64,000 nucleotides of DNA from positions 11,698,123 through 11,762,122 of the forward strand of contig NC_090412.1 of the NCBI RefSeq assembly GCF_036365525.1. Direction: 5' to 3'. Both the position numbers and the translations under genes were made by a program. This stretch comes from Heterodontus francisci. Lineage: Eukaryota. Shown one piece after another: positions 11,501 to 54,657 of this stretch (position 1 is the stretch's first letter; the number at the start of each line of letters is the position of its first letter). Below the pieces are notes generated by a model. The model had not been told where the DNA came from and searched no databases. It saw nothing but the letters and a program-made list of their open reading frames with translations.

Positions 11501-14500
11501 ATTTTAAAATCTTCAAAAAATAATGTAAGCAAAAAACAATTGTTTACTGCAGTTTGCTGACCTTAATTTAGCCTGGAGTGAATGTTGATGTAGGAAGGAA
11601 ATAAAGCAAATAGCTGCCAATCTCAGACAATTTTGAAAGGAAAGCAATAATGAGCCCAAATAGCATTTTTACCCAACTCCTCTCAATGCCTTCAAAATAC
11701 TGGTGAGTCGCAAAATTTAGAAACTGCAGTCCAAACCCAAGATCAACAATGAACACCATATGGATTAGCTGATAAATGTTGATCACTGACTATTTTGCCC
11801 TCTTAAATTATATATCTCTTTCCTTTAAAAACAGAATATTTTAGTGTGACTTACTGGGAGTAATGTTAATTGAACTCCATTGACTGCAACGAAAATTAAA
11901 AACAGGTGGGGTTAAAACCAACATTGTACCCGATCTCTTGTGTTTACCAACAGCCGGGTTAGGTTAAATTGCCCCATTATCCCAAAAATGTTCCAAATAA
12001 TCAGGAATTTTGGCAATAGTGTCCTCTCTGCCAATCATCCTCAATTGTTCTTTATTGAGAAAGGGTCTCCTATACAGCCTTCCTATGTTCTGATAGATCA
12101 AAAGTATAGAATTTAAATAAATGTCAAATTAAACTTTACTGTGTTGTGAAGATTACATCAAATCAAAAGTGAGAGAACACTCAGGAACCATTGATGGGCA
12201 AAGATATTGATGGATACTGGGATACAGAAGCCTAGAGAATTTTGACACCGACAATTACAAGGATTTCCTTTCCCAGTACTAACTACAAATTAAGCTTCAG
12301 TAGTATTGCAATATGTTTTGGAGTACAAGATACTTCGAACTGACAGACTAAAATAAAGAGTTTGGGAAATAAAGATGAAAGGAATAAATTTAAAATTACT
12401 GCAACATCCATTAAATGAAGAACTATCTTAATTGGGGAAAGTATCCAGCTAGTAAATCAATTTGCTCACAGCAAGGTCCTGCAAAAAGCAATGAGATAGA
12501 TGACCAGAGAAGTTAAGTGATATTGATTGAGGGATAAGTATTGGCCCAGACTCGAGGGGAAATACACCAGCTCATTTTAAATAGTTCCCTGGGGTCTTTT
12601 AAATCCATCTTAGACAGGACACTGGCCCTCAATTTAATACCTCATTTAAAAGGTGGCACCTGCAACAGTGCAGCCTCAGTGTTACACTGAACTGTCAGTA
12701 TAGATTATGTACTCAAGTCTCTGGAGTGGGACTCAAAGCCATGACCCAAAAGCAAGAGTGTTTCACCCACTTTACACTATCACTTTACCCTTGTTGTGGT
12801 AGTTTAGTGGTAATGGTATAGGACTCGCAACCCATAGGTTGTGAATTTAAATTGTAAAATTGTATTCAATAAATCTGATGGCAGCAAAGTAACAATGAAA
12901 GATAATTGTTTTTATGTCATGAGTGTCTATGGTAGCAAAACAAAGAACAAAGAACAATACAGCACAGGAACAGGCCATTCGGCCCTCCAAGCCTGCGCTG
13001 ATCTTGATGCCTGCCTAAACTAACACCTTCTGCACTTCCAGGGCCCATATCCCTCTATTCCCATCCTATTCATGTATTTGTCAAGATGTCTCTTAAACGT
13101 CGCTATCGTATCTGCTTCCACCACCTCCCCTGGCAGCAAGTTCCAGGCACTCACCACCCTCTGTGTAAAAAACTTGCCTCGCACATCCCCTCTAAACTTT
13201 GCCCCTCGCACCTTAAACCTATGTCCCCTAGTAACTGACTCTTCCACCCTGGGAAAAAGCTTCTGACTATCCACTCTGTCCATGCCGCTCATAACTTTGT
13301 AAACCTCTATCATGTTGCCCCTCCACCTCCATCGTTCCAGTGAAAGCCTAGTGGTTAAGGTTCTGGACTAGCAAGGTATGTCTTGTTGAGCAAGTTGTGA
13401 AACTGAAGATGGTAAGTATACCACAGGGATGAAAAGAATTATCACAGGAGCTTCTGGATTGACTTTAAACATGCAACTTGTTTGTATATGTACTACAGGG
13501 AAGGGAATCTGCCATCCTAACTGGTCTGGCCTGCATGTTACTCTGACTGGCCTCAGAGCAACTATGGATGAATAATATCCCATATACTAAGAACATTTAA
13601 AAAAACACAGGTACAAGTAATGCAGTGATTTACAAGATGTAATATGTACAATGCATAGCAAACAAAACTAGTTTGTTGAATCTTTTTTATGAAGGAGGTG
13701 TGCCTTTAACTGGCGTCACTTGGGTAAGTGTGATAGTCATCCTAACCCCCTCACCACTTGGCACAGTATCTGTGAGATAAAAACAAAAAGTGCTGGAATT
13801 ACTCAGCAGGTCTGGCAGCATCTGTGGAGAGAGAAGCAGAGTTAACATTTCAGGTCTGTGACCTTTTATCAGAACTAGTAAAGGTTAGAAAAGAATTAGG
13901 TTTTAAGCAAGTGAAGGGGAGAGAAGTGGGGGAGAGAAGAAAGGGGAAGGGGTTTGATAGGGCAGGAGAGATTAAATAACAAAGCTGTCCTGGGACAAAG
14001 GCAAAGAGTGTGTTAATGCTTATGGTGAAAGACAAAGCATTAGTCCAGACAGAGTGTTAATAGTGGAATAATGAGCAGTTCTGACTACATGAAAAGCAGG
14101 CACATGGTTAAAAAATAAAATATTAAAAAAAGCCCAGTCATGCTCTGAAGTTATTAAACTCAATGTTCAGTCTGCAAGGCTGGAGAGTGCCTAATCGATA
14201 GATCAGGTGCTGCTTCTCAAGCTTGCGTTGATGTTCACTGGAGAAACTGGAGCAGGTCAAAGACAGAAATGTTGGTATGAGAGCAGGGGAATGTGTTGAA
14301 ATGGCAAGCAACAGGAAGCTCGAGGTCATGCTTTCGGACTGAGTGGAGGTGTTCCGCAAAGCGGTCACCCAATCTGTGTTTGGTCTCCCCACTGTAGAGG
14401 AGACTGCATTGTGAGCAATGATTACAGTATACTAAATTGAAAGAAGTACAAGTAAATCGCTGCTTCACCTGAAAGGAGTGTTTGGGGCCTTGGATAGTGA

Positions 14501-15670: not shown

Positions 15671-15749
15671 CTACACAGCAGCTTTTAACTCAAAGTGCTC
15701 CTGGGTTAACTCAACCTTTCCAACCCCACTCTCTCTCCTGACAACAACA

Positions 15750-15810
15750 CAAAACGTTGCCAAGGAAGTGAAATCACTCATGAAAGACCCATTGATATAA
15801 ACTTCCGGAG
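15750..15810 (-). promoter_or_regulatory. Candidate C10orf53 proximal promoter with X-box-like and ETS motifs
   Basis: GTTGCCAAGGAAG at 15756-15768 (RFX X-box-like). CCGGAAGT on the minus strand at 15801-15808. Both lie 86-140 nt upstream of the ATG. Confidence 0.45.
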
Positions 15811-16096
15811 GTCAGCTGTGAACTTTAAAAAGAACATAAGCACAGTCACAAGGAAAAATCATTGGGTTTTCCATAATTCTTCCAGCCCTATCACCCCGTT
15901 TCCAATGCCTCCACTGCTTTGCCCAGCAGATTAATCATCTTATTTTAGTCACTGCTGTTTGAAAGTTAACTTTTGGTAATTTTGTAAAGTCCCTGCGTTT
16001 CTTTTCAGAACTTTAGCTGTGACTGCACACACATCCCACAACTATGTTAGTATATGTCTGACCGTCTTCATTCCTGGATAGTGGGATTGGGCTAAT

Positions 16097-17525
16097 ACAA
16101 ATAGAAAGTGTTGGAAATACTCAGCAGGTCAGGCAGCATCTGTCAAGAGGGAAACAGAATTAACGTTTCAGGTCGATGACCTTTCATCAGAACTAGGAAA
16201 GGTTAAAAAGGTAATATCTTGAGCAAGTGAAAAGAGGGAGAGAGGAAGAAGAACAAAAGAGGTGTGTTATAGGGCAGTGGGTGGAAAATATTAAATGATA
16301 AGGATATCATGGAACAAAAGGCAAAAGGGAGAGTTAATAGTTGTTGTAAAAGACAGAGTATTTGTCCAAAGAGAGTGTTAATGGCAGAATAATGAAATGT
16401 TCTGTCTGAAAGCAAAAACATGGAAAACAAGTTTAAGAGATGGTAAAAATAACACAATCAAAATGGGGGTCATGGTGTGAAATTGTTGAACTCAATGTTG
16501 AATCCGGAAGGCTGTAAAGTACCTAATTGGAAAATGAGGTGCTGTTCGTCAGGCTTGCGTTGAGCATCACTGCAGCAGGTCGAAGACAGAAACGTGGGTG
16601 TGAGAGGAGGGAGGTGAATTGAAATGGCAAGCAACCAGAAGTTTAGGGTCATGCTTGCGGACTGAGCGGAGGTGTTCCGCAAAGCAGTCACCCAATCTGT
16701 GTTTGGTCTCCCCAATGTAGAGACGTCCGCATTGTGAGCAGTGAACACAGTATACTAAATTGAAAGAAGTACAAGCAAATCACTGCTTCACCTGAAAGGA
16801 ATGTTTGGGGCCTTGGATGGTGAGGAGTGAGGAGGCAAAAAGGCAGGAGTTACACTTCCTGCGATTTCATGGGAAGGTGCCGTGGGAAGGGGACGAGGTG
16901 TTGGAGGTGATGGAGGAGCGGACCAGGGTGTTAGGGAGGGAACAGTCCCTTCGCAACACTGACAGGGGAGGGGAGAGGAAGATATGTTTGGTGGTGGCAT
17001 CATGCTGCAGGTGGCGGAAATGGTGGAGGGTGATCCTTTGTATATGGAGGCTGGAAAGTGAGGACAAGGGGAACCCTGTCGCAGTTCTGAGAGGGAGGGG
17101 AAGAGGTGAGAACAGAAGTGCAGGAAATGGGTCAGGCCCGGTTGAGGGCCCTGTCAACCACGGGTGGGGGGGAAAATGAAGACATATCAGAAGTGCTGTT
17201 GTGGAAGGTTGCATCATCAGAACAGATTCGACAGAGATGGAGAAACTGGGAGAATAAAATAAAGTCTTTACAGGAGGCAGGGTGTGAGGAAATACAGTTG
17301 AGGTAGCTGTGGGAGTCAGTGGGCTTATAATGAATATTAATAGACAGCCTACCCCAGAGATGGAGACAGAAGTCGAGGAAGGGAAGGGAAGTGTCGGAGA
17401 TGGACCATGTAAAGGTGAGAGAAAGGTGGAAATTGGAAGAAAAGTTGATGAAGTTTCTCCAGTTCCAGGCGGGAGCAGGAAACAGCACTGATACAATCAT
17501 CAATGTACCGGATAAAGAGTTGGGG
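16097..17525 (-). mobile_element. Penelope-like element, 5'-truncated second copy
   Basis: FIRYIDDC, YKPTDSHSYL, GIY-YIG remnants, pLTR with intact hammerhead core. Confidence 0.9.
16158..16194 (-). ncRNA. Minimal type I hammerhead ribozyme motif in Penelope pLTR
   Basis: AGUU CUGAUGA A AGGUC AUC GACCU GAAA C GUU AAUU. Confidence 0.65.
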
Positions 17526-17729
17526 TGCAAAATCTCCCATGTGTTTCATTGTGTTACAGTCTATTGATGGAAGAGCATCAATTGGCCTTTGTTATGGTTT
17601 GGTGCCTCTTATTCAATGTTGTAGCTTAGAGTGGTTTACAGGACTCAATGCTGTATTGTTTGTGAGATGCATCCCAGTTTCTGCAGCCTTTGGTGCTGTG
17701 TACAGATTGTTCCATTACATTACTGACCA

Positions 17730-19950: not shown

Positions 19951-20258
19951 TTTAGTTCCCTGTTGAATGCTATGTTGCCTTCATGTCTAACACCAGTGGT
20001 TTCCAGTTGTATTTCTTATTCGAATATACTTTTCATCTATTATCTGAGGTTGGAATGAACTGTGTCTGAATGACAGTAAGATATGATCCAGCTCCAATTA
20101 AGTTAAAAAAGAGAATGACAGAAATAGAAGTGGGCGGTCTGCAATGAATGTCAGTCTTTCTCAAAAATATTGGAAGATATGCCATAAAGAAGAGTTCATT
20201 ACATTCTTTCTATTCCTTATTACCAGCATTAGCAAAAAGCTTTTTTTTCTCCCTTCAT

Positions 20259-20952: not shown

Positions 20953-21132
20953 CATAGATCAGTGGTGGGATGTGGCCTTCAATGTAATCTGTTTTTGTTC
21001 TTTTATCCTTGCCTTACTCATTGCGACTTATTGAAATCCAGAGATGAGATTCTATAATTTTCCTATTAAATACAACATCCCTATAGTATACATTTGTAAA
21101 ATAAGTAATCAATTCATTTGAAAATATCAATT

Positions 21133-21325
21133 AAAATAAAACAGAAATTGCTGGAAATACTCAGCGGATCTGCCAGTGGAGACAGAAACGGAGTTAATCT
21201 TTCAGGTCGGGTAACCATTTGTCAGAAGTGACGAAAGTGACCATTTTGACAATAAGTCATCGACCTGAAACAGCATTTTCTGTTTTTATTTCAGATTTCC
21301 AGCATCCAGCAGTGCTTTGCTCTTG
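21133..21325. mobile_element. Degenerate inverted Penelope pLTR pair
   Basis: pLTR halves in opposite orientation, same layout as 51178-51401. Confidence 0.6.
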
Positions 21326-21861
21326 TGGAAATGTTAACATTTTGTTCAAAGTACCTTGTTGTCCAGGGTCATTTGAGAGACAGCACACAGTCTGCACTAT
21401 TCATTCCCCAACTCACCCACTCCCCTCCCTCCCCACAACACATACACTTTATATCTGGTGAAAACTTCCACTTTGCATTTGCAGTTGATTGGGTGATTTT
21501 TTTTCTTTATAAAACCATGATAAATTACAACTAAGTGAAAATTTTGTGGCCATAATCAAGTCTGAGGTTTTGGTTTGTTTACTTCTGATACCCAGGCACA
21601 AATACTCAGTGTAGTGTAAAGGAAACATTAGTTTAATATGATCTTCAAAGTGCAATGTGAAAGAAGCCAGAAGAGGACATGTGTTAGAGAGTATTGAGCA
21701 CAAAATGTTGTCTTACCCTTTAAAATACTCAGCTATAATTACTTTGTGCCATTAATCAGATCACTGCAGAAGTGGTTGTCAAATGTATTGAACAATGTAA
21801 GTGTTTAACTGCTTTGAATGGAAGTGATCTGCTTAGCGGCAAGGAAGGTCATCAGAGTGGA

Positions 21862-24272: not shown

Positions 24273-24278
24273 TTTATT
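24273..24278 (-). terminator. Candidate CHAT polyadenylation signal AATAAA (3' UTR about 1.2 kb)
   Basis: TTTATT on the + strand after an AT-rich stretch with no recognised repeats below the stop codon. Confidence 0.45.
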
Positions 24279-28700: not shown

Positions 28701-31700
28701 CTCTGCAATTTCCACTCTCACTTCCCTCAGTATCCTTGGATGCATCTCATCCAGTCCTGGTGCCTTATTAACTTTAAGTACAGCTAACCCATCCAAGACC
28801 TCCTCCTTATCCATTTTAAATCCAAGTGTCTGAATTACCTCCTCTTTCACCATGACCTGCACAGCATCTTCTTCCTTGGTAAAGATAGATGCAAAATTTT
28901 CATTTAATACCTCAGCCATGCCCCCTGCCTCCATGTGTAAATCCCTTTTTGGTCCCTAATTGGCCTCACTTCTCCTTTCACCACTCTTTTACTATTAATA
29001 TGCTATAGAAGACTTTTGGATTCCCTTTTATATTAGCTGCCAGTCTCTTTTCATACTCTCCCTTTGCTGTAGTGCTGTGGTGTACCTCTTTTACATTCTT
29101 GTTTAACCAATAGAAACAAATTAAGGAATTTTGGTACGATAGTGTTTAGACACTGACCTGGCTGGTGGAGAGGGTAAAGTGGTTACTCATCAGGTATGTT
29201 TTATCAGTGAATAGTTTAGGTAACTCTATTTTCAGTTCCTTTGCCATCTCCCGCAGTCCAAGTAAGTGATTGTCTACTGCCATCCCAGTAATAGCCTAGA
29301 ACATAGTCCAAAATGGAGAAACATTTCATTATTTTATATATACTAACATTATCAAGTATAAACTCAAGATCTTAGAAATTGGGCCTTGCAGCACTTATTT
29401 ATCAATCTAAAATAACAGGCAAGAAATGTGCACACACTTCCGATCGAAAGTGCACCAGCCACCATATTCAATAAGGACAAACAAGAGGCATCCTTTACCT
29501 ACATCTGAAGCAGCCCTTAGGCACTGTACATATGCAAATAAGAGGTCCAATGCCTGCTTGTGGTCCCTGTTGCAAGATCGGTTTAGCCTGAGGAAAAAAA
29601 ATCAACCCTACTTAACAAAAAAGGCTATGTTATTTAACTCTGATTGAGGAACTGGGTAAAAAAAGGGCAGTCCCAAATTTCTAGGCCATTGTATTAATAT
29701 GGAATTACAGGATGTTATCCTATAAGGGTATGCATATTCTCCCCTAAGACCATGTTCTTCTGGTTACTGAAATGGTGGACTGGGTAGCATGCTGTAAGTA
29801 AATGCCAGTCCCATATGTAACCAGCTGCCAAGAAACAAGTGGGATTGGTATAGTGGAGGGTTTATTTTTTTCTCATCCCATCTGTCATTCCACTCAGTCC
29901 CCCTGCCCCACCCCCCCCCCCCTCATCTCTCTGCCCCCAACAACACAGGTTACATTTCACTGCTCTGTTGAATACATCTGTTTTATAAAATTCCCAAGGG
30001 AATTAATTATACACTGGAATATTACTTGGAATAATTTGAAAATGCAGGGACTTTACAAGTTGGACAGCACTACAGATTACTACTGCAAAAAACTGAATGT
30101 AAGTTATGACTTGGACACAGCATAGACTTTGTGACTGAATATTTACCATAACCATGTGTTTAGAGGCAAGAAACCAATTTGTTAAACTGAAATACAAAAT
30201 TCACAATAAGCTTGCTAGTTACCTCAAGTGCTGTAGTGTGAGGATATGTTGAATTCAAAGCAATTAATATTTATATTCTAGTCCTGCTCCTTCTTTCCCT
30301 GCCTCGTACTTGCTTAAAAACTGTAACATCTCTAACTGCTTCCAGTTCTGACGAAAGGTCATCGACCTGAAACATTAACTCTGTTTCTCTCTCCACAGCG
30401 GCTGCCAGACCTGCTGAATATTTCCAGAATTTTCTGTTTTTATTTGCGATTTCGAACATTTGGAGTATCTTGCTTTTGTTTTGCGCTAGTATTTATATAG
30501 TGTCTTTAACATTGAAAAGTATGCCCAGGGCCTTCATTGGAGAAAAAAATGAACACAGAGCAAAAGAGAAGATTCTGAGAGTGACCAGAAGTTTGGCCAA
30601 AGAGGTGGGGTTTAATAAAGGTCTTAAAATTGGAGAAAGGAAATAGTTGTAATCCCAGCCCATGGTAAATTACTAGACATCTAAATAATACAAGGAGAAA
30701 ATAAATAGCCCTTTTTAATTAAACAAACACAGTTGTTAAAGTTTTTAAGGGACAGTTTTGGTATGCTATATTTTTATAGGGGACAGGATATGTTGCTGCA
30801 TTACCCAGGAATAGTCTTTAAAATTTGGCTGAACTGTTTGATAAAACTGTAGCTTTGGCAACAACACCATTGAGGGTGCAGAATGCACTGCACTGTGACG
30901 GCCAACAAACTGACTGCAGGAGCGTTTAAGCACTGGTAGTAAGGGAGAGACACTTGGACAGAATTTGTGAATGCAATGACAAAGAGACACAATATTCAGG
31001 AAATGTCTGCGAACAATAGGTTACTTTGGAAATGGGTAAGGAGGGAGAGCATTTGATGGTCGAAGACTACAGAGCCCCTTTGTGTGAATAAGACTGTGAA
31101 TGCTGGAAATCAGAAATAAAACCCAGGCAATACTAAAAGTCTATAGTAGGATCTGCCAACATTTGAAAGGAGAAAAAGTTAATGTCGGGTGGGATCCATT
31201 CTCAGAACTGGGTTGTGCCTGAAACATGAGGATGCCTTTTTTCTTTTCAGATGTCAATGGACCCACTTGTGCTTTGTCAATGTTTACAGCTGTTATTAAG
31301 CTCCTTTATTTATATTGAGGATTATTGTGACTGCTAAAGCCTTATTCATCCGTATTGCCTGTAGAGGGAAACAAACTATGAGTTATTTCCATCATGGCAG
31401 TGCCATTTATAAGCAATGTGATATCATTGCATCACGTGTTTGCAAGCAAAACGTTTGCCAAATGTTCTTTTGTGAATATAATTCCCCTTTAAATTTCCAT
31501 TTCGGTTTCCAGTGGTTTGAAGGAGAACAAGCCAATGCATTTCACCCAAAATTTCAATCATCTATTTCATAACGAAATTAAAACCGGTCATCCCGGTTGT
31601 GCTGTTATACAGTAAAAAAATTGTCCCTATGAATGTCAGAGAGACTTAATTTATGGCTGATAAAAGGAAATCACATTTTCTGACTATAAATTAAATCTGC

Positions 31701-43700: not shown

Positions 43701-46700
43701 AAAACAAGGAAGAAGCCCTGCTGCTAATTCTGTACTTCAACCTGCTGTAGCAGAGAACTGAAAGTGACCACCATTTCCAGTCTGAAGTCTTAACCACCAG
43801 AAATCTACAGCACCTCAACATGTTCAAGACTACAAACAACCCAGGCCTGCACCTTTAAAAGAGACTGTCCTCTTCATAAGATTCAACAGATTTACAATGA
43901 ACCACAAACACGTACCCCACTTTAAACCATTTACCCTTTCCCTCGCTATCTATTGTGTAGGCGTGTGTGAGTGTGAATGTGTGCGTGAGTGAAGTTGTGA
44001 CCATTTCAGGAATTGTATAATAATAGTTATCTTTTTTTAACCTATGAGAAAACTTGTCATTTGTCTGTTTATTTGACCCGAAAAAGCATTCAGGGACTAA
44101 CCCATCATTTTAATTGGGGTCAGTTGGGAGGTGAACAGTGGGAGCCACCCACACCCCTTACCAACTGTCCGTAATAAGTGGAAGAAGATCTCCTTTGATC
44201 AATGGTCAGGAACATTGTAAACCTAGCGGGAAGTTTTCTTGTTTTCTGTTTCTAGTGAAATAAGAAAACAAGTCCAAAAGAACAACTTTGTTAGAAATAG
44301 GAAACACAGTAAAATTTGCCACTGTATTTACAATGTCACAAACACATTGTAAACAGGACATTGTCCCCTAAAATGTAGATTTCCGACATTCTGATGAAAG
44401 GTCACAGACCTGAAATGTTAACTCTGCTTCTCTCTCCACAGATGCTGCCTGACCTGCTGAGTATTTCTAGCACTTTCTATTTTTTTATTGCAGATTTCTG
44501 ACACAATTTGTTAAAAAAGCATTGACTTTAGTCAGATGTATTTTCCACCTGTTATAGAGTAACACAGTTATACAGCACAGAAACAGGCCCTTCGGCCCAT
44601 TGTGTCTGTCCCGGTCGTCAAGCACCTAACTATTCTTATCCCATTTCCCAGCATTTGGCCCATAGCCTTGTATCCTATGGCATTTCAAGTGCTCATCAAA
44701 ATACTTATTAAATGTTATGAGGGTTCTTGCCTTTACCACCTCTTCAGGCAGTGCGTTCCAGATTCCTCACATCCCCTCTAAACCTCCTGCTCCTTACCTT
44801 AAATCTATGCCCCCTGATTATTGACCCCTCCGCTAAGGGAAAAAGTCTCTTCCTATCTAATCTATCAATGCCCCTCATAATTTTGTATACCTCAATCATG
44901 TCCCCCCTCAGCCTTCTCTGCTCTAAGGAAAACAACCCTAGCCTTTTCAGTCTCTCTTCATAGCTGAAATGCTCCAGCCCAGGCAACATCCTGGTGAATC
45001 TCCTTCACACCCTCTCCAGTGCAATCACGTCCTTCCTCTAGTGTGGTGCCCAGAACTGTACACAGTACTCCAGCTGTGGCCTAACTAGTGTTTTATACAG
45101 CTCCATCATAACCTCCCTTCTCTCATATTCTATGCCTCAGCTAATAAAGGCAGTATCCCATATGCCTTCCTAACCACCTTAGCTACCTGTGTTACTGCCT
45201 TCAGTGATCAATGGACAAGTACACCAAGGTCCCTCTGACCCTCCGTACTTCCTAGGGCCCTACCATCCTTTGTATATTCCCTTGCCTTGTTAGTCCTCCC
45301 AAAATGCATCACCTCACATGTTTCAGGATTAAATTCCATTTGCCACTGCTCCACCCATCTTACCAGTCCATCTATATCATCCTGTAATCTAAGGCTTTCC
45401 TCCTTACTATTTACCACACCACCAATTTTCATGTCATCTGTGAACTTACTGATCATGCCTCCTAATTCACGTCTAAATCATTAATGTACACTACAAATAG
45501 CAAATGTCCCTGCACCAATCCCTATGGTACACCACTGGCTTCCACTCGCAGAAACAACCCTCAACCATCACCCTCTGCCTCCTGCCACTAAGCCAATTTT
45601 AGATCCAATTTGCCAAATTGCCCTGGATCCCAAGGGCTCTTACTTTTTTGACCAATCTCCCATGCAGGACTTTATCAAAAGCCTTACTGAAGTCCATGTA
45701 GACTAATCAACTGCTTTACCCTCATCGACACATCTCGTCACCTCCTTGAAAAATTCAATCAAATTAGTTAGACACGATCTCCCCCTGACAAAGCCATGCT
45801 GACTATTCCTGATTAATTCATGCCTCTCCAAGTGGAGATTAATCCTGTCCCTCAGAATTTTTTCCAGTAGTTTCCCTACCACTGATGTTAGACTGTAATT
45901 ACCTGGTTTATCCCTGCTACTGTTCTTAAATAATGGTACCACATTCGCTGTCCTCCAATCCTCTGGTACCTCTCCTGTGGCCAGAGTGGATTTGAAAATT
46001 TGTGTCAGAGCCCCTGCTATCTCCTCCCTTGCCTCACAATACAGCCTGGGATACATATCATCTGGGCCTGGGGATTTATCCACTTTTAAGCCCGCTAAAA
46101 CAGCTAATACTTCCTCCCTTTCAATGCTAATATGTTCAAGTATATCACAATCCCCCTCCCTGATCGCTACACCCATATCGTCCTTCTCCCTAGTGAACAC
46201 AGATGAAAAGTAATCATTTACAACCTCACCTATGCCCTCCGGCTCCACACATAGATTGCCACTTTGGTCTCTAATGGGCCCTACTCTTTCCCTGGTTATC
46301 CTCTTGCCCTTAACATACTTATAAAACGCCTTGGGATTTTCCTTTATCTTGCCTGCCAGTGTTTTTTCATGTCCCCTCTTCACTCTCCTAATTACTTTTT
46401 TAAGTTCCCTCCTACACTTTCTATACTCTTCTAGTGCCTCCGCTGTTTTCAGCACTCTGAATCTGCTGTAAGCCTCCTTTTTTTCCCTTATCCAACCCTC
46501 TATGTTCCTTGACATCCAGGGTTCCCTGGACTTGTTAGTCCTTCCCTTCACCTTAACGGGTACATGTTGGCTCTGAACTCTCACTATTTCCTCTTTGAAT
46601 GACTCCCACTGGTCTGATGTAGACTTTCCTACAAGTAGCTGCTCTCAGTCCACTTTAGCCAGTGTGTTGTAACTCACCTGCTAACTCAAATATTCTTTGT

Positions 46701-49700
46701 GATTTGTTTTGAATTTTACAGTTGGATCAAATCAATTACTTGTAGGTCCATGTGTATTAATTATCTCAATTATTAACACCATCACTGATTATTGTTTATG
46801 CTGCTTTTTAATGAAATGCAATGCTAATGAATATAACTATACATTAGTGACTTCATCATGCATAGTACTGGTAAGAGTGCTGCTCAGTGGGCTGAATTTT
46901 GCCAGCCCCTCGACATTGAAAGTCGTGGCACGGAGGCCCATAAAATACTTGCGGGAGCGGCCCGCCACGACCCCCAACTCCGAGAAGGCCCCGTTGCATT
47001 TTACTGGCGGCGGCGAGGCCTCAGTGCAGCCGCCTGCCGTTTGGTGGCTGGGGCCTTCATTTAAATATTAAAATTAATTAAAACAACATGCAAATCAAAT
47101 TACCTTGTCCCAGCAGCCATCCCTCACTGATATTACAGCTGCCAAACGGAAGTCCCTCTGTCTGGAGTTCTGAGGCGCGACACTGGTGGGGAGGGTGGAG
47201 GAGTGAAAATTTCAGGGCGGTGGGGGAGAGGGGAGAACTATTGTAATGGGTTTTGGGGATGGTGGAAAGGGGTTGAGGGTCAAAGGTTCTGAAGTTAGGG
47301 GGAAAAGTTCACAAAATGAAAAGGTGCTTTTTTTGGGGGGATATGTCACTGTAATACATGAGGACTCAGTGGGGGTTGTGATTTGTTTTGAATTTTACAG
47401 TTGGATCAAATGGAGCCCTCTCCATTTAAATGAGCCCCTGCGCAAAATCCGGCATGCTCGTAAAATTCAGCCCCGCATGTCTAATTATGTTAAAGGTCAA
47501 TTGTGTGTGAATAATATGATAGTGCACATCAAGAGTGAACTTAGCAATGTTTGAAGGTATAAGTAATGCAATTTATCCTGTTAACTTTAACCAGGTTTTC
47601 AACAGGGACCCTGGTTTAAGGTGACTGAATAAATTCTATGGGATTCCAGGACTTTTTCCAATTTTTTGAAGAATGCATTCCACCATTTTCCTGTTTTTTT
47701 TATGGTCTTTAATTGTCAATAGCATACTCTGTCAAGAATGTTATTCACCTCATTATTATGCAGAATATTTCGATCACATGCCTATACATAGAGAGTGGAT
47801 AGTGTAAGGTTCTGTCTACCATATTACAACGATCAAAGTACACTCTGAGAATTAATGGGCTGAATTCTATAAACCCGGTGCCTCATTTAAATGGCGTAGG
47901 CACTGACCCCATTTTTAAAGGGCTGTTAACCCTACAGGCAAATTTAAATATTTAAAGGAAGATTAAATGAAATTAAATAAATATATATGCCCCTCTCCCG
48001 CCCACCAATAACAATTAAATTAATTATTTGCCCTCCCCCCCCCCCCAAAACACGTACCTTTACCATCTGACCTTCACCACTCCCGCCCCCAAACTGCACA
48101 AACTTTAAACTTTCACCTTTCCCACCATCCCCTACATTACTTTGACCCTGCTCGCACCCCTACCCCCGCACTGAGAAACGTACCTCCTCCCCGCTCCCCA
48201 CCAGTGTTCCACCTCATTTCTCCAGAAGGGGATCCGAAGGTGCGGTAATGCCAGCCACTGGGGTGAAGATCTCGACGGGACTTCAGGAGGCGACAGAATA
48301 GTAATTAATGCAGGTATTTTAATTTATTTAAATATTTAAATTGTGGTTCCGTTGCCGAGCGGCAGGGAGGGCCACCACGAGACCTCTCAGCTGTCAGCAA
48401 TATTGAGCTGGGCCCTGCCAGCATTGAGGTGTGTGGCATGCCTCATCCCGGACCATCTTCAGACCACCCCACCTTCCACGGATCCTGGCGTTGAGGGCTG
48501 TATAGAATCCAGCCCAATAGGTTTGGTGCATGCAACACCAAAATCCAATTCCCTTCCAAGACAAAATACAGCAGTTTCCTAATTCAACTATTAGATATAG
48601 GTAAAATAAAAGCAAAATACTGCGGATGCTGGAAATCTGAAATAAAAACAAGAAATGCTGGAACCACTCAGCAGGTCTGCCAGCATCTGTGGAAAGAGAA
48701 GCAGAGTTAACGTTTCGGGTCAGTGACCCTTCTTCGGAACTGACAAATATTAGAAAAGTCACAGGTTATAGGCAAGTGAGGTGGGGGTGGGGCAAGAGAT
48801 AACAAAGGAGGTCTAGATTGGACCAGGTCACATAGCTGACCAAAAGGTCACGGAGCAAAGGCAAACAATATGTTAATGGTGTGTTGAAAGACAAAGCATT
48901 AGTACAGATTAGGTATTAATATACTGAATATTGAACAGAGGCAAGTGCAAACATGAAAAAAACAGTGGGTAAGCAAACTGAACAGACTAAGATGAAATGA
49001 AATAAATGCAAAAAAAAAAATTGTAAAAAATGTAAAAAAGAATGTTGAAAAAAAGGAAGAAAAAATGACTAAAAATGAAAGTAAAATGGGGGGCTGTCAT
49101 GCTCTGAAATTATTGAACTCAATGTTCAGTCCGGCAGGCTGTAGTGTGCCTAATCGGTTAGATATAGGTACATGGTCTTTGGCATGAGTCTATTGTACCC
49201 ATGATGTGGAACAACCTTTAAAAAAGAGAGGAAAGTCCAGTCATTTCAGGGTACTTTTTTCTGATCTTGGTAAGTAGCCAAAGACAAAAAAAAAGCTGCC
49301 AATCTCGAGAGACCATTGGCAGTCCTCAAATTACCTCAGGACCTAATTTCATGATTAGATGTTTTGCCCTAAAGAGACACAGTCCCACCTTAACAATGGA
49401 ATAGTGGGCAACGTGGTATAATTATATATGAGTCATACATGGTGTACTGCTTCTGTCATTATAGGTGAGTTTGTCTTCAACTTTCATGGGCAATGCCAAG
49501 GGAACTTTATTAATGTTTGGACAAATAAAATATATCCTTGAAGTAAAATAATGGTAGCTATGAATATATTGGAAAGCTTTCCATAGTTTTGAAGATGTAG
49601 GAATTTGAAGATGTAAGAATTAATGAAATTAGTGAAATTAAGCCCAGGCTTCTATCCTTAATAAATAGATAAAACTTGTACTTATATGAGAGAATCTATT

Positions 49701-52700
49701 CTAATTTCAGAGAAAAGCATTCTAATCTTCCCTGTGATGGTAATGTGTTGGCAGTGCCTACATAGTGTCTCACAATAAGATCAAATGCAAGGCCAGAAGC
49801 GATTCTTAAGGGCAAATTATATTAAAATGCCTTGGTATAGATTTGTGATCTGATATGAATATGATGTAGGGAGTTCAGTAACATCCATGACTACCATCCA
49901 CGCATTCTGTTCACCAGATAAATCAATATGTGGTTTTGATTGGAGGGGTTGTCATTTTAGTTAAACCTTCATTAATTTTCCCATCAGCAACAGCATCTTA
50001 AATGAGTAATAAAGTGAGGGCAAACTGGAGCACCCAACTGTAATTCTATTTGGGGAGTTTATATCTGGTGGAATTAAAATGAACTGGAAACAATGGCATT
50101 CTGAGCTCGTATTTGAATTGTTGTGGAATATGTCCTAGGAAATAAATACAACGCTGATCATACTGTTTGCATTTAAGGCAAATCTACCTTCACCCAAAAC
50201 ATTTGCCTAGCTGGTTTTGTGTCATTAAATGAGGTAATGAGAATACTTTGACAGCTTGCACCTCACCTCTCATGACCATTCTCCTGGCCTCCGCCCATTC
50301 GGTCCTGCTATCTGATGTGAGCAGCCCAATCGGTGTTACTCCGTCTTCCTCATTCTCTGCCATTTTCACTATCTTTCTCAACTGAGTGAATAAGTCGGTT
50401 TCGTTCAAACGTCTGAAGTTTATGACAACATCCAAAACGAAGAACTGGAAACAAATGGAAACGAAGCTAATGTTTGGAGTAAAATGTTGAAAGGTGTGGA
50501 TTACATTTTTAAAGACCCCTTTAAATCGTGGGTCTGGATTACTTGGTGGGGCGGGGGGGGGATGCTATTATTAATGCAATTGAAAAAGTAAATGTATAAC
50601 CATCTGGAGAGGTAAGTTGCCCGATATTTATGATCTTTGAGCTCATTTGCCCACTCTAAATAAGGTCACCCTGGCATCAATTGTTAAATGCCTTGCATCT
50701 AGCTATTCTTTATCCCCGGTAGAAATTGAAGCATCACCTGATTCTGACAGGCCACTATAACGTGCTCTGGTTCCGGCATGACACTGCTTTTCTGGACAGC
50801 CAGTGTGTCTTTCTGGTGACCTGGCAGACGGTAGGATGAGAAGAGCCTGTAGTACTGCTCCATACACAAGGGATGTCCAGCAAGTTGACCACGGGCATAA
50901 TCAACAGGTAATGCACGGCTGGAAAACAGGTGTGAAAGTAAATGTTTGTTTCAGCGTAATACCCCAGCTTCCCCCTTACTCATGCCCCTACAATCTCCAT
51001 GTCAGCTGTTGTTTAATTTAGGATTCTGCCAGGGCAAAAATTTTCTGATTGTGTAACGGCAGAAATCTGGATTTTTCCTCTGCTTAAATTGGTAAAAGAT
51101 CTGAAAAATCTATTTATAAATGTTAATATTTTGGGAGCCACGATACGATTTTTGACTATAAGCCAATAAGTGGGCTAATAAAAACAAGAAATGCTGGAAA
51201 TACTCAGCAGGTCTGGCAGCATCTGTGGAGAGAGAAACAGAGTTAACGTTTCAGGTCAGTGACCTTTCATCAGAACTATCACTGACCTGAAATATTAACT
51301 CTGCTTCTCTCTCCACAGATGCTGCCAGACCTGCTGAGTATTTCCAGCACTTCCTGTTTTTATTTCAGATTTCCAGCATCTTCAGTATTTTGCTTTTATT
51401 GCAATAAATGGGCTAGTTGGCTGTCAATAAACTACCAGGAGGATTGCGAATGTTCTGATCAAACAGTAGCCAGATATTGACCCTTCACTGTCATCAATTA
51501 AATCATTGACAAAAATTAAGACCAGCGCTGTCGGGCAGTGATCAAAGAGGTATGAGATAAGGTAACAAGCATCATGGGAGAATACTAACACTGGGAAGGG
51601 TGAAGGGTTATTTTGCAATTCTAAGAATTCTAGATGATCGAAATAGCACTTCTTTATTTCCTCTATCTCACTCATGTTACTATGGCCCCTGCTTCATCAA
51701 TCTTTGGTCCCTTTTAGTCTGCAAATCCTTACACGCCCAATGTGCTGACAGGAAAATTCAGGGCATTCTCTGCTATCCTATCTCATTCTTTTGCAACAAT
51801 TTAAAGCTATGGAACTCAATCATGCCCTCACCCCACAATCTCCAGACTTTACAAACGACCTCTAATCACTGTCTCCCCTTGTTCTTTCAGACCTTGACCG
51901 GACATTGTTCAAAGGCCTTGCTCTTGGTTTTCCAAGACAAGGAAACCTACATTTTATCTATTGTTCTCATTTAATATCCAACGTTATATGTGAACCATTT
52001 TTAAGGCATTTTGGACAAGGAACTTATTTTCACTGAATAGTCTTAGGTTTGCTGGAGAAACAATGGAAAAAAAGAAAAGCATAATCGCCCATGTTAACGA
52101 GGTAGGGGAATATTGTATTGAATGCTATGGTCAATTTTATTCATTGCTTGACATCTGAATGGTGATAACTTACGCGTCTATTACCACTTTGTAATCCAGT
52201 ATTCCAGAAATGAGGCGGGCAGCAAACCTGTAAAGGAAGATAAAATACTCGTAATGTTAGCACGACGGTGAGATTTCTCCAGTGCGGGCTAGCCCCACGC
52301 GAGGAAGAATGCTAAAACATCATTTCTTATCCAAGAGAGTTCCGCCTGACTGTGATTACAGAAGTAGAGTGCAGATTTCACTAGGTAACGCTGATACCTC
52401 GCAGCCTCAACACTGAAGAGCTGTCCAGGTTCGAACTAAATTAGTCTGTTATGAGCTAGTTCATGTTACAGCTACGACCTTAAATCTGCCAAGGTGTATA
52501 GAGGAGATTGTGAACTCGGTTTACATCTGCTGCATATCACTCTTGCATGAAATAACAGTGACAAGACATTTCCACCAGGTACTTTATCGCATATGCAAAG
52601 GCTATAGGGAAAGATATACAAAAATAATCTGCCTTTGGAACATGACCAGGAAATGGTCCCAAGTTAATATTTCTGAGCAGAGTTCACAATATCTCAACCT

Positions 52701-54657
52701 ACAGCTTCTGAAAACACTGCATGGTTGCGTTGGAAACACTGAATGATCATTCTAACTATGCATGTTACAAAAGTGCATTTCTGTCCTGCTATGTGATCGG
52801 ACAGGGTATAATTGTACCTGAGTTGATCACCCTCGTCCCGGAAGTTCTGGCGAGGAAACACCATTCCAGGACTGGAGTTTACCGCAAGTGCAGCTGAATT
52901 GCGGAGATACATATCGTCCAACCACCATTCGTAAACCTTGGGAAGAAAATGAAAACCTGCTTAATGTCACCTCTTATCAATTAGTTGTATTATCTTTGGA
53001 AATGCCTTTTTTTGGTTCTCTAATTCATTCCTTGGTTTCAATTTAAATATTAAAGAAAATTCAGAAGCAGACAATGATTTATTGATAAAAGCAAAATACT
53101 GCGGATGCTGGAAATCTGAAACAAAAACAAGAAATGCTGGAATCACTCAGCAGGTCTGGCAGCATCTGTGGAAAGAGAAGCAGAGTTAACGTTTCGGGTC
53201 AGTGACCCTTCTTCGGAATGATTTATTGATGCCGGTTCGTTCATAAAGTTCGACAAATACCAGCAAAAGGGGAATGGGTGATCTTTACATTCCATCGTCT
53301 GGTTCGTATATTGAGACAACATTAAAAAACATCGGCTTCAATTTCTATCATTGCAGAATGGTCCTATTGAAGGTATTTAAAATCTATTTGATCAACTTAA
53401 TCAGCAAGGTGCCACATTTTAAATCACCGTAAGCACATGGAATGATTTATTCTGAATATAGAAAGTCGATGTTAAATTGGCAGTGAAACCAACGAAACAA
53501 GAATCCCTTGCGAAACCAGTGGAACGCACATCATCTGCAAAACAGAGGTCGTGATAATTATATTTCATAAATTTCTAAACATAATTACATTTACTCAGTA
53601 GCTTCTCTGTTTACTTGCATTCTCAGTCTAAGGTAGTAAAAGCAAGTGAATTAACCAGATCTATCGTATTGACGGTGCAGAGTTGTACCATTTACCCAGT
53701 TAACTTTACTTTCTCTTCGCTTTATCAATTGTTGCTGCAAAAATTCTCCAATCTCTCCACGGGCGCCAAACCTTTCGACAATAGCTGTGGAGGTTTTGTA
53801 CTGATCCTCCGTGACCAGGTGTTTCATACAGTTCAGGTACATGTCCAAGGTCTCTTGTAGAGGGGGGACCGGCAGCTTGGGGAGCACCTGCAGCACAGAC
53901 AGGTTCAAGAGGAATGAGGTGACATGAGGCAAGAGTCGTTTTTGAATAATAAAGCTATTCAGTTAAATGAAACAAAGCAGTGAAAACAAGGGAGCGGTGC
54001 AGGCCTGATTGTTCCGTTATACGATTCGCTAACATGGGCTTCTTTACACCACCAACAACTTGCATTTGGAAACTGCGCCAGTTTGTCATTTGCATTGCAA
54101 ATCCCACTTCGCATTCTGTATAGGCTTGCGAAAGGGTAGCCCGCGGACGAAGTGTTATAAGTCGAAAGTATTTTGCACTATCTGAACCCAAGTCCTGCCA
54201 AGAAGTGCTTTAGAAATGTCCATTACTCATTGTTGCAACGTAATGATATTAAGATCCTGACAATTCAATTAATTCACAACTCTGCTCTCTCCATAATGTG
54301 TTGCTCATTAACTCATCCATTTGAGCTATTACAATGGCAGCGACAATTCTTAATCTAACCATCTGCCACATCGAAAAGTAATGGTTTTACGTATTCAACC
54401 CCGTTGAGTGATGTAAAAGCTACATTAATACTTGACAGTGTTTGACTAGTTACTGTACCCAGCTTAGTTTAAACATGGTACTCCGTTAACATTCGATTAT
54501 CAAGCTGCACAGTTACATTATAGAATTTGCACACATCAAAGGGGATGGGGAGAGCCTGGATCAGACTGTAAAGTGTGTATAAAAGTTGTAGTACATAGCT
54601 GTTCCGGCGAGCTTTGGGTCGGACCGAGTCCTGGTTATTGTTATTGAGGACTGGCAT
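25494..54657 (-). CDS. CHAT: Choline O-acetyltransferase, 14 coding exons, 1926 nt including stop (641 aa)
   Basis: Exons assembled by hand: 63+192+119+54+181+178+170+101+129+123+142+63+138+273 nt. All GT-AG and in frame. Internal exon sizes match mammalian CHAT as recalled. Catalytic EHS, choline-type GRVDN, DNHLL and STSQ motifs present. Confidence 0.97.
27230..29068 (-). mobile_element. CR1 LINE RT and 3' end
   Basis: [46 protein letters not shown]. (ATCATAGA)-type tail. Confidence 0.92.
29158..29295 (-). CDS. CHAT: CHAT coding exon 13 ([16 protein letters not shown]...FTLSTSQ), 138 nt
   Basis: TTCTAG acceptor, CAG|GTCAGT donor, DNHLL and STSQ motifs. Confidence 0.97.
30285..30480 (+). 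mobile_element. Solo Penelope pLTR with hammerhead motif at 30344-30380
   Basis: AGTT CTGACGA A AGGTC ATC GACCT GAAA CATT AACT. Confidence 0.75.
32069..32131 (-). CDS. CHAT: CHAT coding exon 12 ([21 protein letters not shown]), 63 nt
   Basis: TAGCAG acceptor, GTAAGT donor, phase 0-0. Confidence 0.94.
32262..32720 (+). mobile_element. L2 LINE 3' fragment
   Basis: Homologous to 19480-19950. Confidence 0.75.
33505..33646 (-). CDS. CHAT: CHAT coding exon 11 ([29 protein letters not shown]...), 142 nt
   Basis: TCTAATCCAG acceptor, TCG|GTGCGT donor, [17 protein letters not shown] motif. Confidence 0.97.
33950..35330 (+). mobile_element. Old, fragmented CR1 RT remnants
   Basis: Remnants such as [10 protein letters not shown] and [12 protein letters not shown] near 34865-34975, interrupted by unrelated sequence. 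Confidence 0.55.
35968..37265 (+). mobile_element. Degenerate CR1 LINE RT and 3' end
   Basis: [24 protein letters not shown] motifs. Confidence 0.85.
37830..37952 (-). CDS. CHAT: CHAT coding exon 10 ([41 protein letters not shown]), 123 nt
   Basis: TTTTCCAG acceptor, AG|GTGAGT donor, GK.FIK...SPDAF.Q.ALQL CoA-binding motif. Confidence 0.97.
38085..38508 (-). mobile_element. Short SINE-like derivative of the tRNA-headed LINE
   Basis: LINE 3' tail joined to LINE 5' head. Junction differs from the 3035 and 6297 copies. Confidence 0.75.
38622..38750 (-). CDS. CHAT: CHAT coding exon 9 ([26 protein letters not shown]...KLQR), 129 nt
   Basis: TCTTTTACAG acceptor, AG|GTACAG donor, [12 protein letters not shown] as in mammalian ChAT. 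Confidence 0.97.
39754..39854 (-). CDS. CHAT: CHAT coding exon 8 with catalytic His ([33 protein letters not shown]), 101 nt
   Basis: TTTTTCCTGCAG acceptor, AT|GTATGT donor, EHS catalytic motif. Confidence 0.96.
40783..40952 (-). CDS. CHAT: CHAT coding exon 7 ([14 protein letters not shown]...NRWYDKTMQ), 170 nt
   Basis: GCAG acceptor, CAG|GTATTG donor, HGGG and NRWYDK motifs. Confidence 0.97.
43061..43547 (-). mobile_element. CR1 3' end with 9-bp TSD
   Basis: [31 protein letters not shown] at 43052-43060 and 43548-43556. Confidence 0.88.
44388..44492 (+). mobile_element. Short Penelope pLTR fragment starting at a hammerhead core
   Basis: CTGATGA A AGGTC ACA GACCT GAAA TGTT AACT. Flanks share AGATTTCYGACA. 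Confidence 0.75.
44555..46660 (-). mobile_element. CR1 LINE RT and 3' end
   Basis: [44 protein letters not shown]. Confidence 0.92.
46889..47473. mobile_element. Harbinger-like MITE
   Basis: GGGCTGAATTTTG ... TAAAATTCAGCCC TIRs. Confidence 0.6.
47857..48515. mobile_element. Harbinger-like MITE
   Basis: 15-bp TIR GGGCTG(A/G)ATTCTATA (14/15 match), 3-bp TSD AAT. Confidence 0.7.
48604..49157 (-). mobile_element. Penelope 3' end with 13-bp TSD and hammerhead motif at 48705-48741
   Basis: TTAGATATAGGTA at 48591-48603 and 49158-49170. GIY-YIG C-terminus [19 protein letters not shown]. Confidence 0.88.
50267..50444 (-). CDS. CHAT: CHAT coding exon 6 ([13 protein letters not shown]...ARRMVMR), 178 nt
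   Basis: CAG acceptor, G|GTGAGG donor, [12 protein letters not shown] motif. Confidence 0.97.
50738..50918 (-). CDS. CHAT: CHAT coding exon 5 ([33 protein letters not shown]...CQNQ), 181 nt
   Basis: TTTTCCAG acceptor, CAG|GTGATG donor, PLCM.QYY.LFSSYR motif. Confidence 0.97.
51178..51401. mobile_element. Inverted Penelope pLTR pair with 14-bp TSD
   Basis: About 85-bp inverted arms. CAATAA(G/A)TGGGCTA at 51164-51177 and 51402-51415. Confidence 0.85.
51241..51277 (-). ncRNA. Minimal type I hammerhead ribozyme motif, intact core, sense in a CHAT intron
   Basis: AGUU CUGAUGA A AGGUC ACU GACCU GAAA C GUU AACU. Confidence 0.7.
52174..52227 (-). CDS. CHAT: CHAT coding exon 4 ([17 protein letters not shown]), 54 nt
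   Basis: TCTTCCTTTACAG acceptor, GTAAGT donor, phase 2-2. Confidence 0.95.
52818..52936 (-). CDS. CHAT: CHAT coding exon 3 ([11 protein letters not shown]...DQLR), 119 nt
   Basis: TTTTCTTCCCAAG acceptor, AG|GTACAA donor, WLDDMYL and VNSSP motifs. Confidence 0.97.
53087..53216 (-). mobile_element. 130-bp Penelope pLTR insertion with perfect 14-bp TSD and hammerhead motif
   Basis: AATGATTTATTGAT at 53073-53086 and 53217-53230. Near-identical to 48607-48737. Confidence 0.88.
53696..53887 (-). CDS. CHAT: CHAT coding exon 2 ([14 protein letters not shown]...ESKVNW), 192 nt
   Basis: CAG acceptor, GTAAAT donor, LPKLPVPPL choline/carnitine acyltransferase signature. Confidence 0.97.
54595..54657 (-). 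CDS. CHAT: CHAT coding exon 1 ([21 protein letters not shown]); exon begins at 54677
   Basis: Acceptor TCTTTCTTTTATCGGCAG before 54677. ACG ATG start resembles rodent MPILEK. 21 codons then TAT|GTACTA, a weak phase-0 donor. Confidence 0.8.

What the first reader, a model, noticed from the sequence alone, without database searches (positions are those of the whole stretch)
13840..53218. Family of minimal hammerhead ribozyme motifs with a compensatory stem II change
Seen: seven pLTR copies carry stem I (AGUU/AACU), a CUGANGA-like core, stem II and GAAA-C-GUU. They are at 13840-13876(-), 16158-16194(-), 30344-30380(+), 44388-44423(+), 48705-48741(-), 51241-51277(-) and 53184-53218(-). Stem II is AGGUC/GACCU in five copies and GGGUC/GACCC in two, a compensatory double change, while the loop varies (ACA/AUC/ACU). 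The GGGUC subfamily also has a non-canonical CCGAAGA core and has perfect TSDs, so it looks recently mobile. The 13840 copy has a G8A change. Established: Penelope-like elements carry minimal hammerheads with a palindromic stem III thought to act as dimers. Inference: predicted cleavage is GUU^AACU.
Basis: partly seen in the sequence, partly recalled or inferred. Interest (0 to 1): 0.7.

Follow-up and report, generated by a model that had tools for sequence, protein, structure and literature searches.

The report
Penelope hammerhead with altered core, rolled
These seven motifs are copies of the small hammerhead (self-cutting RNA) motif known from Penelope-type jumping genes; the youngest family has changed one normally fixed core letter in over 23,000 identical copies, and where the copies begin and end suggests that short copies likely come from uncut RNA and long ones likely from an RNA circle.

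Summary
Confirmed with corrections: seven (plus one decayed) minimal hammerhead motifs lie in the terminal repeat of a Neptune/Nematis-type Penelope element, a known arrangement (Cervera 2014). Genome-wide about 77,000 copies match. The 'compensatory change' is real but concerns one pair and happened once, in two steps ordered by copy age: A-U, then G·U, then G-C; the A·C mismatch is rare (407 against 14,901 G·U). The U4C core is the state of the youngest family, including intact tandem arrays (23,220 identical motifs). Copy starts pile up at the motif's first base (likely RNA start: TATA-like box at -29), not at the predicted cut (207 hits against 145 at a control site). New here: 39 of 75 terminal repeats stop at that base, but only 2 of 32 upstream repeats of long copies do, and two 9-11 kb single insertions hold three and four near-identical motifs. 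Long copies thus came from a seamless template, most likely a ribozyme-made circle; strand transfer without cutting is the main rival. Cleavage itself is untested. The scan found the U4C core and the short-copy pile-up before, in this and other genomes.

The parts
13840..13876 (-). Minimal hammerhead, old A-U class; G8A and C15.2U, likely dead
13773..15211 (-). 5'-truncated Penelope copy: decayed RT C-terminus and GIY-YIG, then pseudo-LTR; 87% to the intact unit over the ORF part
16158..16194 (-). Minimal hammerhead, old A-U class, loop AUC, stem I with one G·U
16091..17525 (-). 5'-truncated Penelope copy, 83% to the intact unit over the ORF part
21134..21332 (.).
30344..30380 (+). Minimal hammerhead, old A-U class, N7=C, stem III palindrome broken (G16.2A)
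30277..30486 (+). Short pseudo-LTR copy between 12-bp target duplications with one mismatch (30265-30276, 30487-30498)
44389..44491 (+). About 100-nt stub starting two bases into stem I (hammerhead 44389-44423); 12-bp duplication with one mismatch (44377-44388, 44492-44503)
48705..48741 (-). Minimal hammerhead, young U4C / G10.1-C11.1 class; predicted cut between 48709 and 48708; likely RNA start at 48741
48604..49157 (-). Young 5'-truncated copy (last ORF codons, whole pseudo-LTR, tail); exact 13-bp duplication (48591-48603, 49158-49170); TATA-like motif 29 nt before the hammerhead
51241..51277 (-). Minimal hammerhead, A-U class, canonical core, starting at the first base of stem I
51178..51401 (.). 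Back-to-back insertion: stub (minus, short 3' end) plus inverted arm 51279-51400 (plus, with tail); 14-bp duplication with one mismatch
53184..53218 (-). Minimal hammerhead, young U4C class, lacking the first two bases of stem I
53087..53218 (-). 134-nt stub, 99% to the intact unit; exact 14-bp duplication (53073-53086, 53217-53230)

Best explanation
The motifs are minimal hammerheads in the terminal repeat of a recently active Penelope-like retrotransposon, sitting at the likely first bases of its RNA; uncut RNA likely yields the many 100-135-base copies that start at the motif, while occasional cutting at both repeats and re-ligation would likely give a unit-length RNA circle from which the long, more-than-unit copies are made. 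Steps: (1) shown: the motif is part of a 3,290-nt unit with an intact RT + GIY-YIG frame; (2) inferred: transcription starts at the first A of stem I; (3) shown by copy ends: reverse transcription starts 100 or 135 nt downstream of that base; (4) inferred: on linear uncut RNA it runs off at the RNA start and gives stubs and fold-back pairs; (5) inferred: the two hammerheads of one transcript pair through ACGU, cut at GUU^AACU, probably helped by the element's protein, and a host ligase closes a circle; (6) shown: long copies read through the RNA-start position without stopping and can hold 3-4 identical motifs, which a circle explains and which also rebuilds the upstream promoter. U4C likely slows the ribozyme without abolishing it; it rose together with the G10.1-C11.1 pair.
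For: Intact array with the U4C motif: 924-aa stop-to-stop frame, RT and GIY-YIG matches. Copy 5' ends: 60 of 187 at unit 366-372, 5 of 187 at 400-403; genome-wide 3,938 starts at the first base (about a quarter are a subfamily variant, not ends) and 2,129 two bases later, against 207 at the cut and 145 at a control site; of the first 30 cut-site hits only 11 are true ends. TATA-like motif at -29 in 60 of 69 copies, YY|A start. Two 3' ends at 465-472 and 500-510, the tail of Frangieh 2024. Of 45 long copies 30 pass the start position, 2 stop there, 1 at the cut, against 39 of 75 terminal young repeats (p=3e-6). Two single insertions with 13-bp duplications hold 3 and 4 motifs with 0, and 1 and 0, mismatches between units. 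The two repeats of one element disagree at 36 of 834 polymorphic sites, against 31% between elements, and share 14 private changes. Pairing kept through A-U, G·U, G-C in age order; A·C 407 against G·U 14,901. Changes between subfamilies otherwise fall on N7 and loop II.
Against: No direct trace of cutting: no excess of 5' ends at the cut, 0 of 33 jump junctions there, only 9 matches (7 places) for a motif duplicated by a jump to a cut 3' end, scattered over several positions. U4C 'considerably decreases activity in vitro' (PMC3088659), and metazoan minimal hammerheads cut poorly even as dimers (PMC4209133). In Anolis PAc, hammerhead mutants did not affect insertion in vitro and no RNA-seq ends lay at the cut (PMC11167929). 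Folding favours a dimer with intermolecular stem II (-24.8 kcal/mol) over stem II plus III of the active form (-17.5). The prediction that the slower U4C family leaves more stubs was not borne out (39 of 75 against 21 of 56, p=0.11). 24 of 33 jump junctions lie upstream of the proposed RNA start, so RNAs that span it are common and might be read-through. Identical units in arrays could partly come from later unequal crossing-over or assembly polishing. The RNA start is inferred; an added cap G was not evident in target-duplicated copies.
Confidence: 0.52

Rival explanations
1. Clasp and strand transfer: the motif does not need to cut. Its palindromic stems hold the two ends of the linear RNA together, and the reverse transcriptase jumps from the RNA start to the matching place in the 3' repeat, as often as it reaches the end. 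Pairing is selected, catalysis is not, so U4C is tolerated.
For: U4C fixed in the most successful family while stem II pairing was never broken; jumps from the RNA-start position are seen (7 of 33 junctions), and in 8 of 33 the insertion ends where the jump junction lies, as expected for a linear template; predicted dimer pairs through stem II; catalysis dispensable in vitro for PAc (PMC11167929); no ends at the cut site.
Confidence: 0.3
2. The motif is a passenger kept by overlap with promoter or protein-binding signals; long and tandem copies come from read-through transcripts of tandem masters or from second insertions into the element's own repeat.
For: Partial tandems are usually described as tandem insertions (PMC2377424); PAc nicks its own repeat (PMC11167929); many templates span the start site; the share of variable positions inside the motif (5 of 37) is similar to that downstream (11 of 65) (counted by eye).
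Against: The two repeats of one element are copies of one template (4% against 31% discordance, 14 shared private changes); arrays have one target duplication; pure read-through would shorten elements each generation; 4 of the 5 variable motif positions are free or keep pairing.
Confidence: 0.14
3. The pile-up reflects splicing: AG|UU at the start of stem I is a 3' splice site, as in Drosophila virilis Penelope, or the UUAAC at the cut is a branch point for the acceptor 21 nt downstream.
For: Pyrimidine-rich AG at the start of stem I in all subfamilies; the D. virilis intron ends at helix I (PMC4209133).
Against: Stubs abut their target duplication with no exon in front; no joint matching either predicted intron among those listed (contigs only, 17 joints not shown).
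Confidence: 0.04

Closest known systems
Minimal hammerheads of metazoan Penelope-like elements (Cervera and De la Pena 2014, PMC4209133; read parts 1-2 of 4)
   Same: Type I motif in the pseudo-LTR; 4-bp helix I; unpaired nucleotide between 9 and 10.1; palindromic 15.2-16.2 with no loop; thousands of solo copies; families with compensatory changes; circle model proposed there without genomic evidence.
   Different: U4C core in the active family (the parts read report U3-A8, not U4C); older families have A-U or G·U at 10.1-11.1 instead of G-C; copy number 77,000 against 2,000-9,000 reported.
PAc (Poseidon) of Anolis carolinensis (Frangieh et al. 2024, PMC11167929; read parts 1-2 of 4)
   Same: Two internal reverse-transcription starts that give the tail; uncut RNA is the main substrate; no ends at the cut site; protein-assisted ribozyme.
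   Different: There the start codon lies in stem II; here the hammerhead is about 170 nt upstream of the main ATG and at the likely RNA start. This element has the Cys linker. They did not examine read-through of long copies.
Neptune/Nematis clades of endonuclease-bearing PLEs (Craig et al. 2021, PMC8557442; passages)
   Same: RT, CX2-5CxxC linker, C-terminal GIY-YIG, partial tandems, inverted 5'-truncated partner, 30-40-bp tail, hammerhead near the 3' end.
   Different: Clade not placed by a tree here; no microsatellite preference was evident in the junctions inspected (not counted).
Viroid hammerhead with natural U4C (Perreault et al. 2011, PMC3088659; section 8 and passages)
   Same: Same core change, tolerated in vivo.
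   Different: Full hammerhead with tertiary contacts in a viroid; here a minimal, dimer-dependent motif in a vertebrate retrotransposon.
Animal non-LTR retrozymes (PMC7229834, passages; bioRxiv 10.64898/2026.07.22.740005, part 1 of 5 and passages)
   Same: Type I hammerhead, tandem copies, proposed circular RNA intermediate moved by PLE enzymes; reported in one chondrichthyan genome.
   Different: Retrozymes are 50-1000-nt non-coding tandem units; here the repeated unit is the 3.3-kb coding element and the short copies are monomeric ends of it.

Membership tests
Minimal hammerhead of metazoan PLEs | Core C3 U4 G5 A6 N7 G8 A9, G12 A13 A14 A15.1, U16.1 H17 | tested here: met
   Met in the older A-U and G·U classes (U4 in 15 of 18, 13 of 15, 13 of 20 copies)
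Minimal hammerhead of metazoan PLEs | U4 in the young GGGUC family | tested here: not met
   C4 in 60 of 73 young copies, the rest mostly CpG decay; 23,220 exact copies; intact arrays carry it
Minimal hammerhead of metazoan PLEs | [quoted passage not shown] | tested here: met
   A in 129 of 130 copies
Minimal hammerhead of metazoan PLEs | G10.1-C11.1 pair | tested here: inconclusive
   G-C in 73, G·U in 37, A-U in 18 of 130 copies: met only in the young family
Minimal hammerhead of metazoan PLEs | Palindromic 15.2-16.2, no stable monomer helix III | tested here: met
   ACGU with zero loop; C15.2 and G16.2 each 113 of 130, departures mostly CpG decay; not formed in monomer folds
Minimal hammerhead of metazoan PLEs | Lies in the pseudo-LTR of an RT + GIY-YIG element, sense strand | tested here: met
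Minimal hammerhead of metazoan PLEs | Self-cleavage as a dimer | not testable with these tools
   No biochemistry; only contig data were available
Rfam hammerhead families | Match to a curated covariance model | tested here: not met
   No hammerhead family at E<=1 in the window
EN+ Penelope-like element, Neptune/Nematis type | Single ORF with RT and C-terminal GIY-YIG | tested here: met
   916 aa from ATG; RVT_1 E=6e-6 and GIY-YIG E=0.002, both below Pfam's curated cut-off
EN+ Penelope-like element, Neptune/Nematis type | CX2-5CxxC linker between RT and endonuclease | tested here: met
   C-X4-C-X2-C just before the GIY-YIG match; feature from PMC8557442
EN+ Penelope-like element, Neptune/Nematis type | Partial tandems, inverted truncated partner, 30-40-bp tail | tested here: met
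EN+ Penelope-like element, Neptune/Nematis type | Placement in the Neptune clade by RT phylogeny | not tested
   No reference set fetched
Non-LTR retrozyme | Small non-coding unit in tandem repeats, each with a hammerhead, as an independent family | tested here: not met
   Short copies are single or back-to-back ends of the coding element; deleted mini-units have different junctions from locus to locus

The most novel reading that the evidence does not exclude
An autonomous vertebrate Penelope element rebuilds its pseudo-LTR and promoter by rolling round a ribozyme-made RNA circle, using a U4C hammerhead whose loss of speed was offset by the simultaneous gain of G10.1-C11.1; the genome records both templates: uncut linear RNA as stubs, the circle as seamless more-than-unit copies.
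Probability: 0.4. Interest if true: 0.72.

Novelty: new variant of a known kind. Interest (0 to 1): 0.42.

Why it matters
How Penelope elements regenerate their pseudo-LTR has been called without 'obvious mechanism' (PMC2377424) and the role of their hammerhead 'still unclear' (PMC8557442). Intact, very young arrays and tens of thousands of dated copies give a natural series (A-U/U4, G·U/U4, G-C/C4) and two sharp, opposite predictions (switch point at 400/401 for a circle, 367/368 for strand transfer). The motif as such is ordinary for this element class.

Tried and rejected
Rfam search: no hammerhead hit. Cap-derived extra G: 43 of the first 100 start-site hits have G before the start (counted by eye), but the 30 loci inspected show fold-back or short duplicated pieces and target duplications without an added G: not supported here. 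More stubs in the U4C family: p=0.11. Linkage test for a switch point inside the repeat: tree-like haplotypes, N7 too rare among 110 young copies, no verdict. Footprint of jumps to a cut 3' end: 9 matches, no peak. Splicing at either predicted intron: no matching joint in 8 runs laid, all contigs, mostly guessed to be RNA; one contig joins foreign sequence at the AG before the main ATG, a single record. Contig depth falls at the motif's edge but mirrors copy number and was not used. U4 as mere CpG decay of an ancestral C4: rejected, the old classes show TG without matching CA. One search had stem I off by one column and is superseded; alignment A1 is a hand-picked set of 22, 15 of them found by motif patterns. 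Papers not held: Lunse et al. 2017 on PLE hammerhead variants and Arkhipova et al. 2017; either, or the unread supplements of PMC4209133 and PMC8557442, may already list U4C.

Full report
Observation. All seven motifs are present at the stated coordinates. Stem II, loops, the CCGAAGA core of the two GGGUC copies and G8A at 13840 are as described. Corrections: complete AGUU/AACU in 4 of 7, GAAACGUU in 4 of 7, an extra A after A9 in all, and an eighth decayed copy at 21134-21332. The two GGGUC insertions have exact 13- and 14-bp target duplications; three older ones have 12-14 bp with one mismatch; none was clear for the two longest. Rfam has no matching hammerhead model. A relaxed descriptor gave 98 distinct hits in 1.57 Mb of fetched, family-enriched DNA against 1 in a Markov control.

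Setting. The window lies in a 6.0-Gb genome at a locus with an MFS transporter frame (59064-60767) and a choline/carnitine acyltransferase exon (50190-50564), both on the minus strand; I read these as VAChT and ChAT from recalled locus structure. That the host is a shark is a recalled impression and the wording of earlier notes, not tested here.

The element. The exact 37-nt U4C motif has 23,220 copies, a degenerate pattern 76,886, an A-U-class pattern 7,824. Locus L031/L032 holds a tandem of 3,290-nt units with an intact 924-aa frame (916 aa from ATG): RT (E=6e-6) and C-terminal GIY-YIG (E=0.002), both under Pfam's cut-off, and a C-X4-C-X2-C linker, the mark of the Neptune and Nematis clades (PMC8557442, passages). 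In unit numbering (1 = first base after the upstream stop) stem I starts at 368, C3 is 372, the predicted cut lies at 400/401 and the main ATG at 540. All window copies are 5'-truncated pieces of this element.

The compensatory change. Among 130 copies with a whole motif, not chosen by motif sequence, the 10.1-11.1 pair is G-C in 73, G·U in 37, A-U in 18, A·C in none. With identical flanks the genome has 14,901 G·U and 407 A·C copies. Non-CpG divergence orders the classes: A-U 6.5% (a mixture of subfamilies), G·U 5.1% and 3.7%, C4/G-C 1.5% down to 0.1%. In the old classes positions 4 and 11.1 read TG with almost no CA, so U is the source state, not CpG decay. The change is thus real, went through a wobble and never broke pairing, but it is one pair and one history: on 22 hand-picked rows 1 of 11 pairs changes on both sides and 492 of 500 shuffles reach that. 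Other subfamily changes inside the motif fall on N7 and loop II; the exception is U4C, which appears together with C11.1. A natural U4C is known from a viroid, where it lowers activity in vitro but is tolerated in vivo (PMC3088659, section 8 and passages). A search for 'hammerhead' with 'U4C' returned only that paper; a search with core spellings returned 29 papers, of which the 15 listed show no Penelope paper by title; a search for Penelope in elasmobranch genomes returned 3 unrelated listings. Lunse et al. 2017 could not be read.

Where copies end. 3' ends cluster at 465-472 and 500-510 (231 copies), the two internal reverse-transcription starts that make the PLE tail (PMC11167929, parts 1-2). 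In 187 copies found by a 3' anchor or in random stretches, 60 start at 366-372 and 5 at 400-403; among the 71 that are at least 95% identical to the young unit, 37 and 0. Genome-wide, patterns that demand two non-matching bases in front give 3,938 at 368 (26 of the first 100 carry CT, and the 7 such loci inspected are a subfamily variant that continues upstream), 2,129 at 370, 207 at the cut and 145 at control position 409. Of the first 30 cut-site hits 10 keep motif sequence upstream, 9 are fold-backs of an arm that reached 368 and paired through stem I, 11 are true ends. A TATA-like motif starts at -29 in 60 of 69 continuing copies and the start reads YY|A, so 368 is the likely transcription start; D. 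virilis Penelope has a TATA-less internal promoter instead (PMC2377424, passages). A cap-derived G was not evident. RNA data were contigs only and show neither starts nor splice joints.

Long copies behave differently. A pattern at the ORF start has 2,886 matches; I examined 90 loci, covering the first 92 of the 100 listed places. Of 45 distinct copies with at least about 1 kb of ORF, 30 continue past 365 into an upstream unit, 2 stop at 366-372, 1 at 373-399, 1 at the cut, 11 earlier. Terminal repeats of the young family stop at 366-372 in 39 of 75 (Fisher p=3e-6 against 2 of 32). L031/L032 is one 9.2-kb insertion with a 13-bp target duplication, three motifs and no mismatch between units; L303/L304 is one of about 10.7 kb with a 13-bp duplication, four motifs and 1 and 0 mismatches over 3,296 nt. 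In 24 long elements the two repeats disagree at 36 of 834 polymorphic sites, against 31% between elements, and share 14 private changes. So both repeats descend from one template position, and that template has no hard end at 368. A further 33 junctions join a pseudo-LTR position to 550-1900 in the ORF start, nearly each different; 7 leave from 366-369, 24 from upstream of it, none from the cut: the enzyme jumps readily.

Mechanism. Priming 100-135 nt from the RNA start can only give stubs on a linear RNA. To copy the ORF and rebuild the promoter the enzyme needs a circle or a jump to the 3' repeat. The lack of a second stop at 368 favours a covalent circle, and the paired hammerheads, one per repeat, would make exactly one unit, as proposed by Cervera and De la Pena (PMC4209133, parts 1-2). 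I put this at 0.52. Against it: no trace of free cut ends, the U4C core, a predicted dimer that prefers intermolecular stem II, dispensable catalysis in PAc in vitro, and a failed side prediction (stub share 39 of 75 against 21 of 56, p=0.11). Strand transfer with the motif as a non-cutting clasp gets 0.30; passenger status with read-through or serial insertion 0.14; splicing 0.04. A linkage test could not separate them.

Comparison and novelty. It works like the minimal hammerheads of metazoan PLEs and meets their structural marks, except U4 in the young family; cleavage is untested. It is not a retrozyme family (PMC7229834, passages; bioRxiv 10.64898/2026.07.22.740005, part 1 and passages). 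Earlier notes of this scan, in this and other genomes, already report the U4C core and the stubs at the likely RNA start; my checkpoint held that reading before I saw them, and they are not independent support. The short texts shown do not mention the age-ordered wobble path or the first-pass versus later-pass contrast in the coding element; rolling-circle footprints are noted there for non-coding retrozymes. Verdict: real, a new variant of a known kind, interest 0.42.

Noticed in passing
window 59064-60767 (-) and 50190-50564 (-): Intronless MFS transporter frame and an acyltransferase exon, read as the VAChT/ChAT locus; the copies at 48705, 51241 and 53184 would be intronic and sense to ChAT, so an active motif could cut its pre-mRNA.
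   Followed up: no
L327, L340, L344, L289, L287, L298, L291: Internally deleted mini-units (about 250-1500 nt) repeated 1.5-2.5 times within one insertion, each with its own junction: possible seeds of retrozymes.
   Followed up: partly
L031 7739-7622 (-), unit 423-540: An upstream ATG after a pyrimidine tract and CAG, a GT at unit 442 and an AG just before the main ATG would splice in frame to the ORF; no joint seen, one contig joins at that AG.
   Followed up: partly
unit 421-494; window 53095-53168 region: A long predicted hairpin downstream of the motif spans the first priming site and ends before the second.
   Followed up: no
L209, L212, L213, L215, L223, L224, L232: Fold-back insertions joined through the stem I complementarity: the motif's own helix seems to prime inverted copies.
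   Followed up: partly
window 51177-51364: The back-to-back insertion forms a long hairpin that scores weakly against microRNA models; chance similarity.
   Followed up: no
window 12938-13275 and 55800-56137: 338-nt repeat pair, 95% alike, opposite strands: another young repeat family.
   Followed up: no
window 343-2275, 28095-28955, 45703-46644: Decayed LINE-type reverse transcriptase and endonuclease remnants.
   Followed up: no
G000:C1:22616651-22646863: About 12-kb tandem segmental repeats that each carry two young stubs; copy counts include such duplications.
   Followed up: partly
L390-L392 (G000:C5:45571227-45571341): A 38-nt tandem of the bare hammerhead motif, at least four copies.
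   Followed up: no
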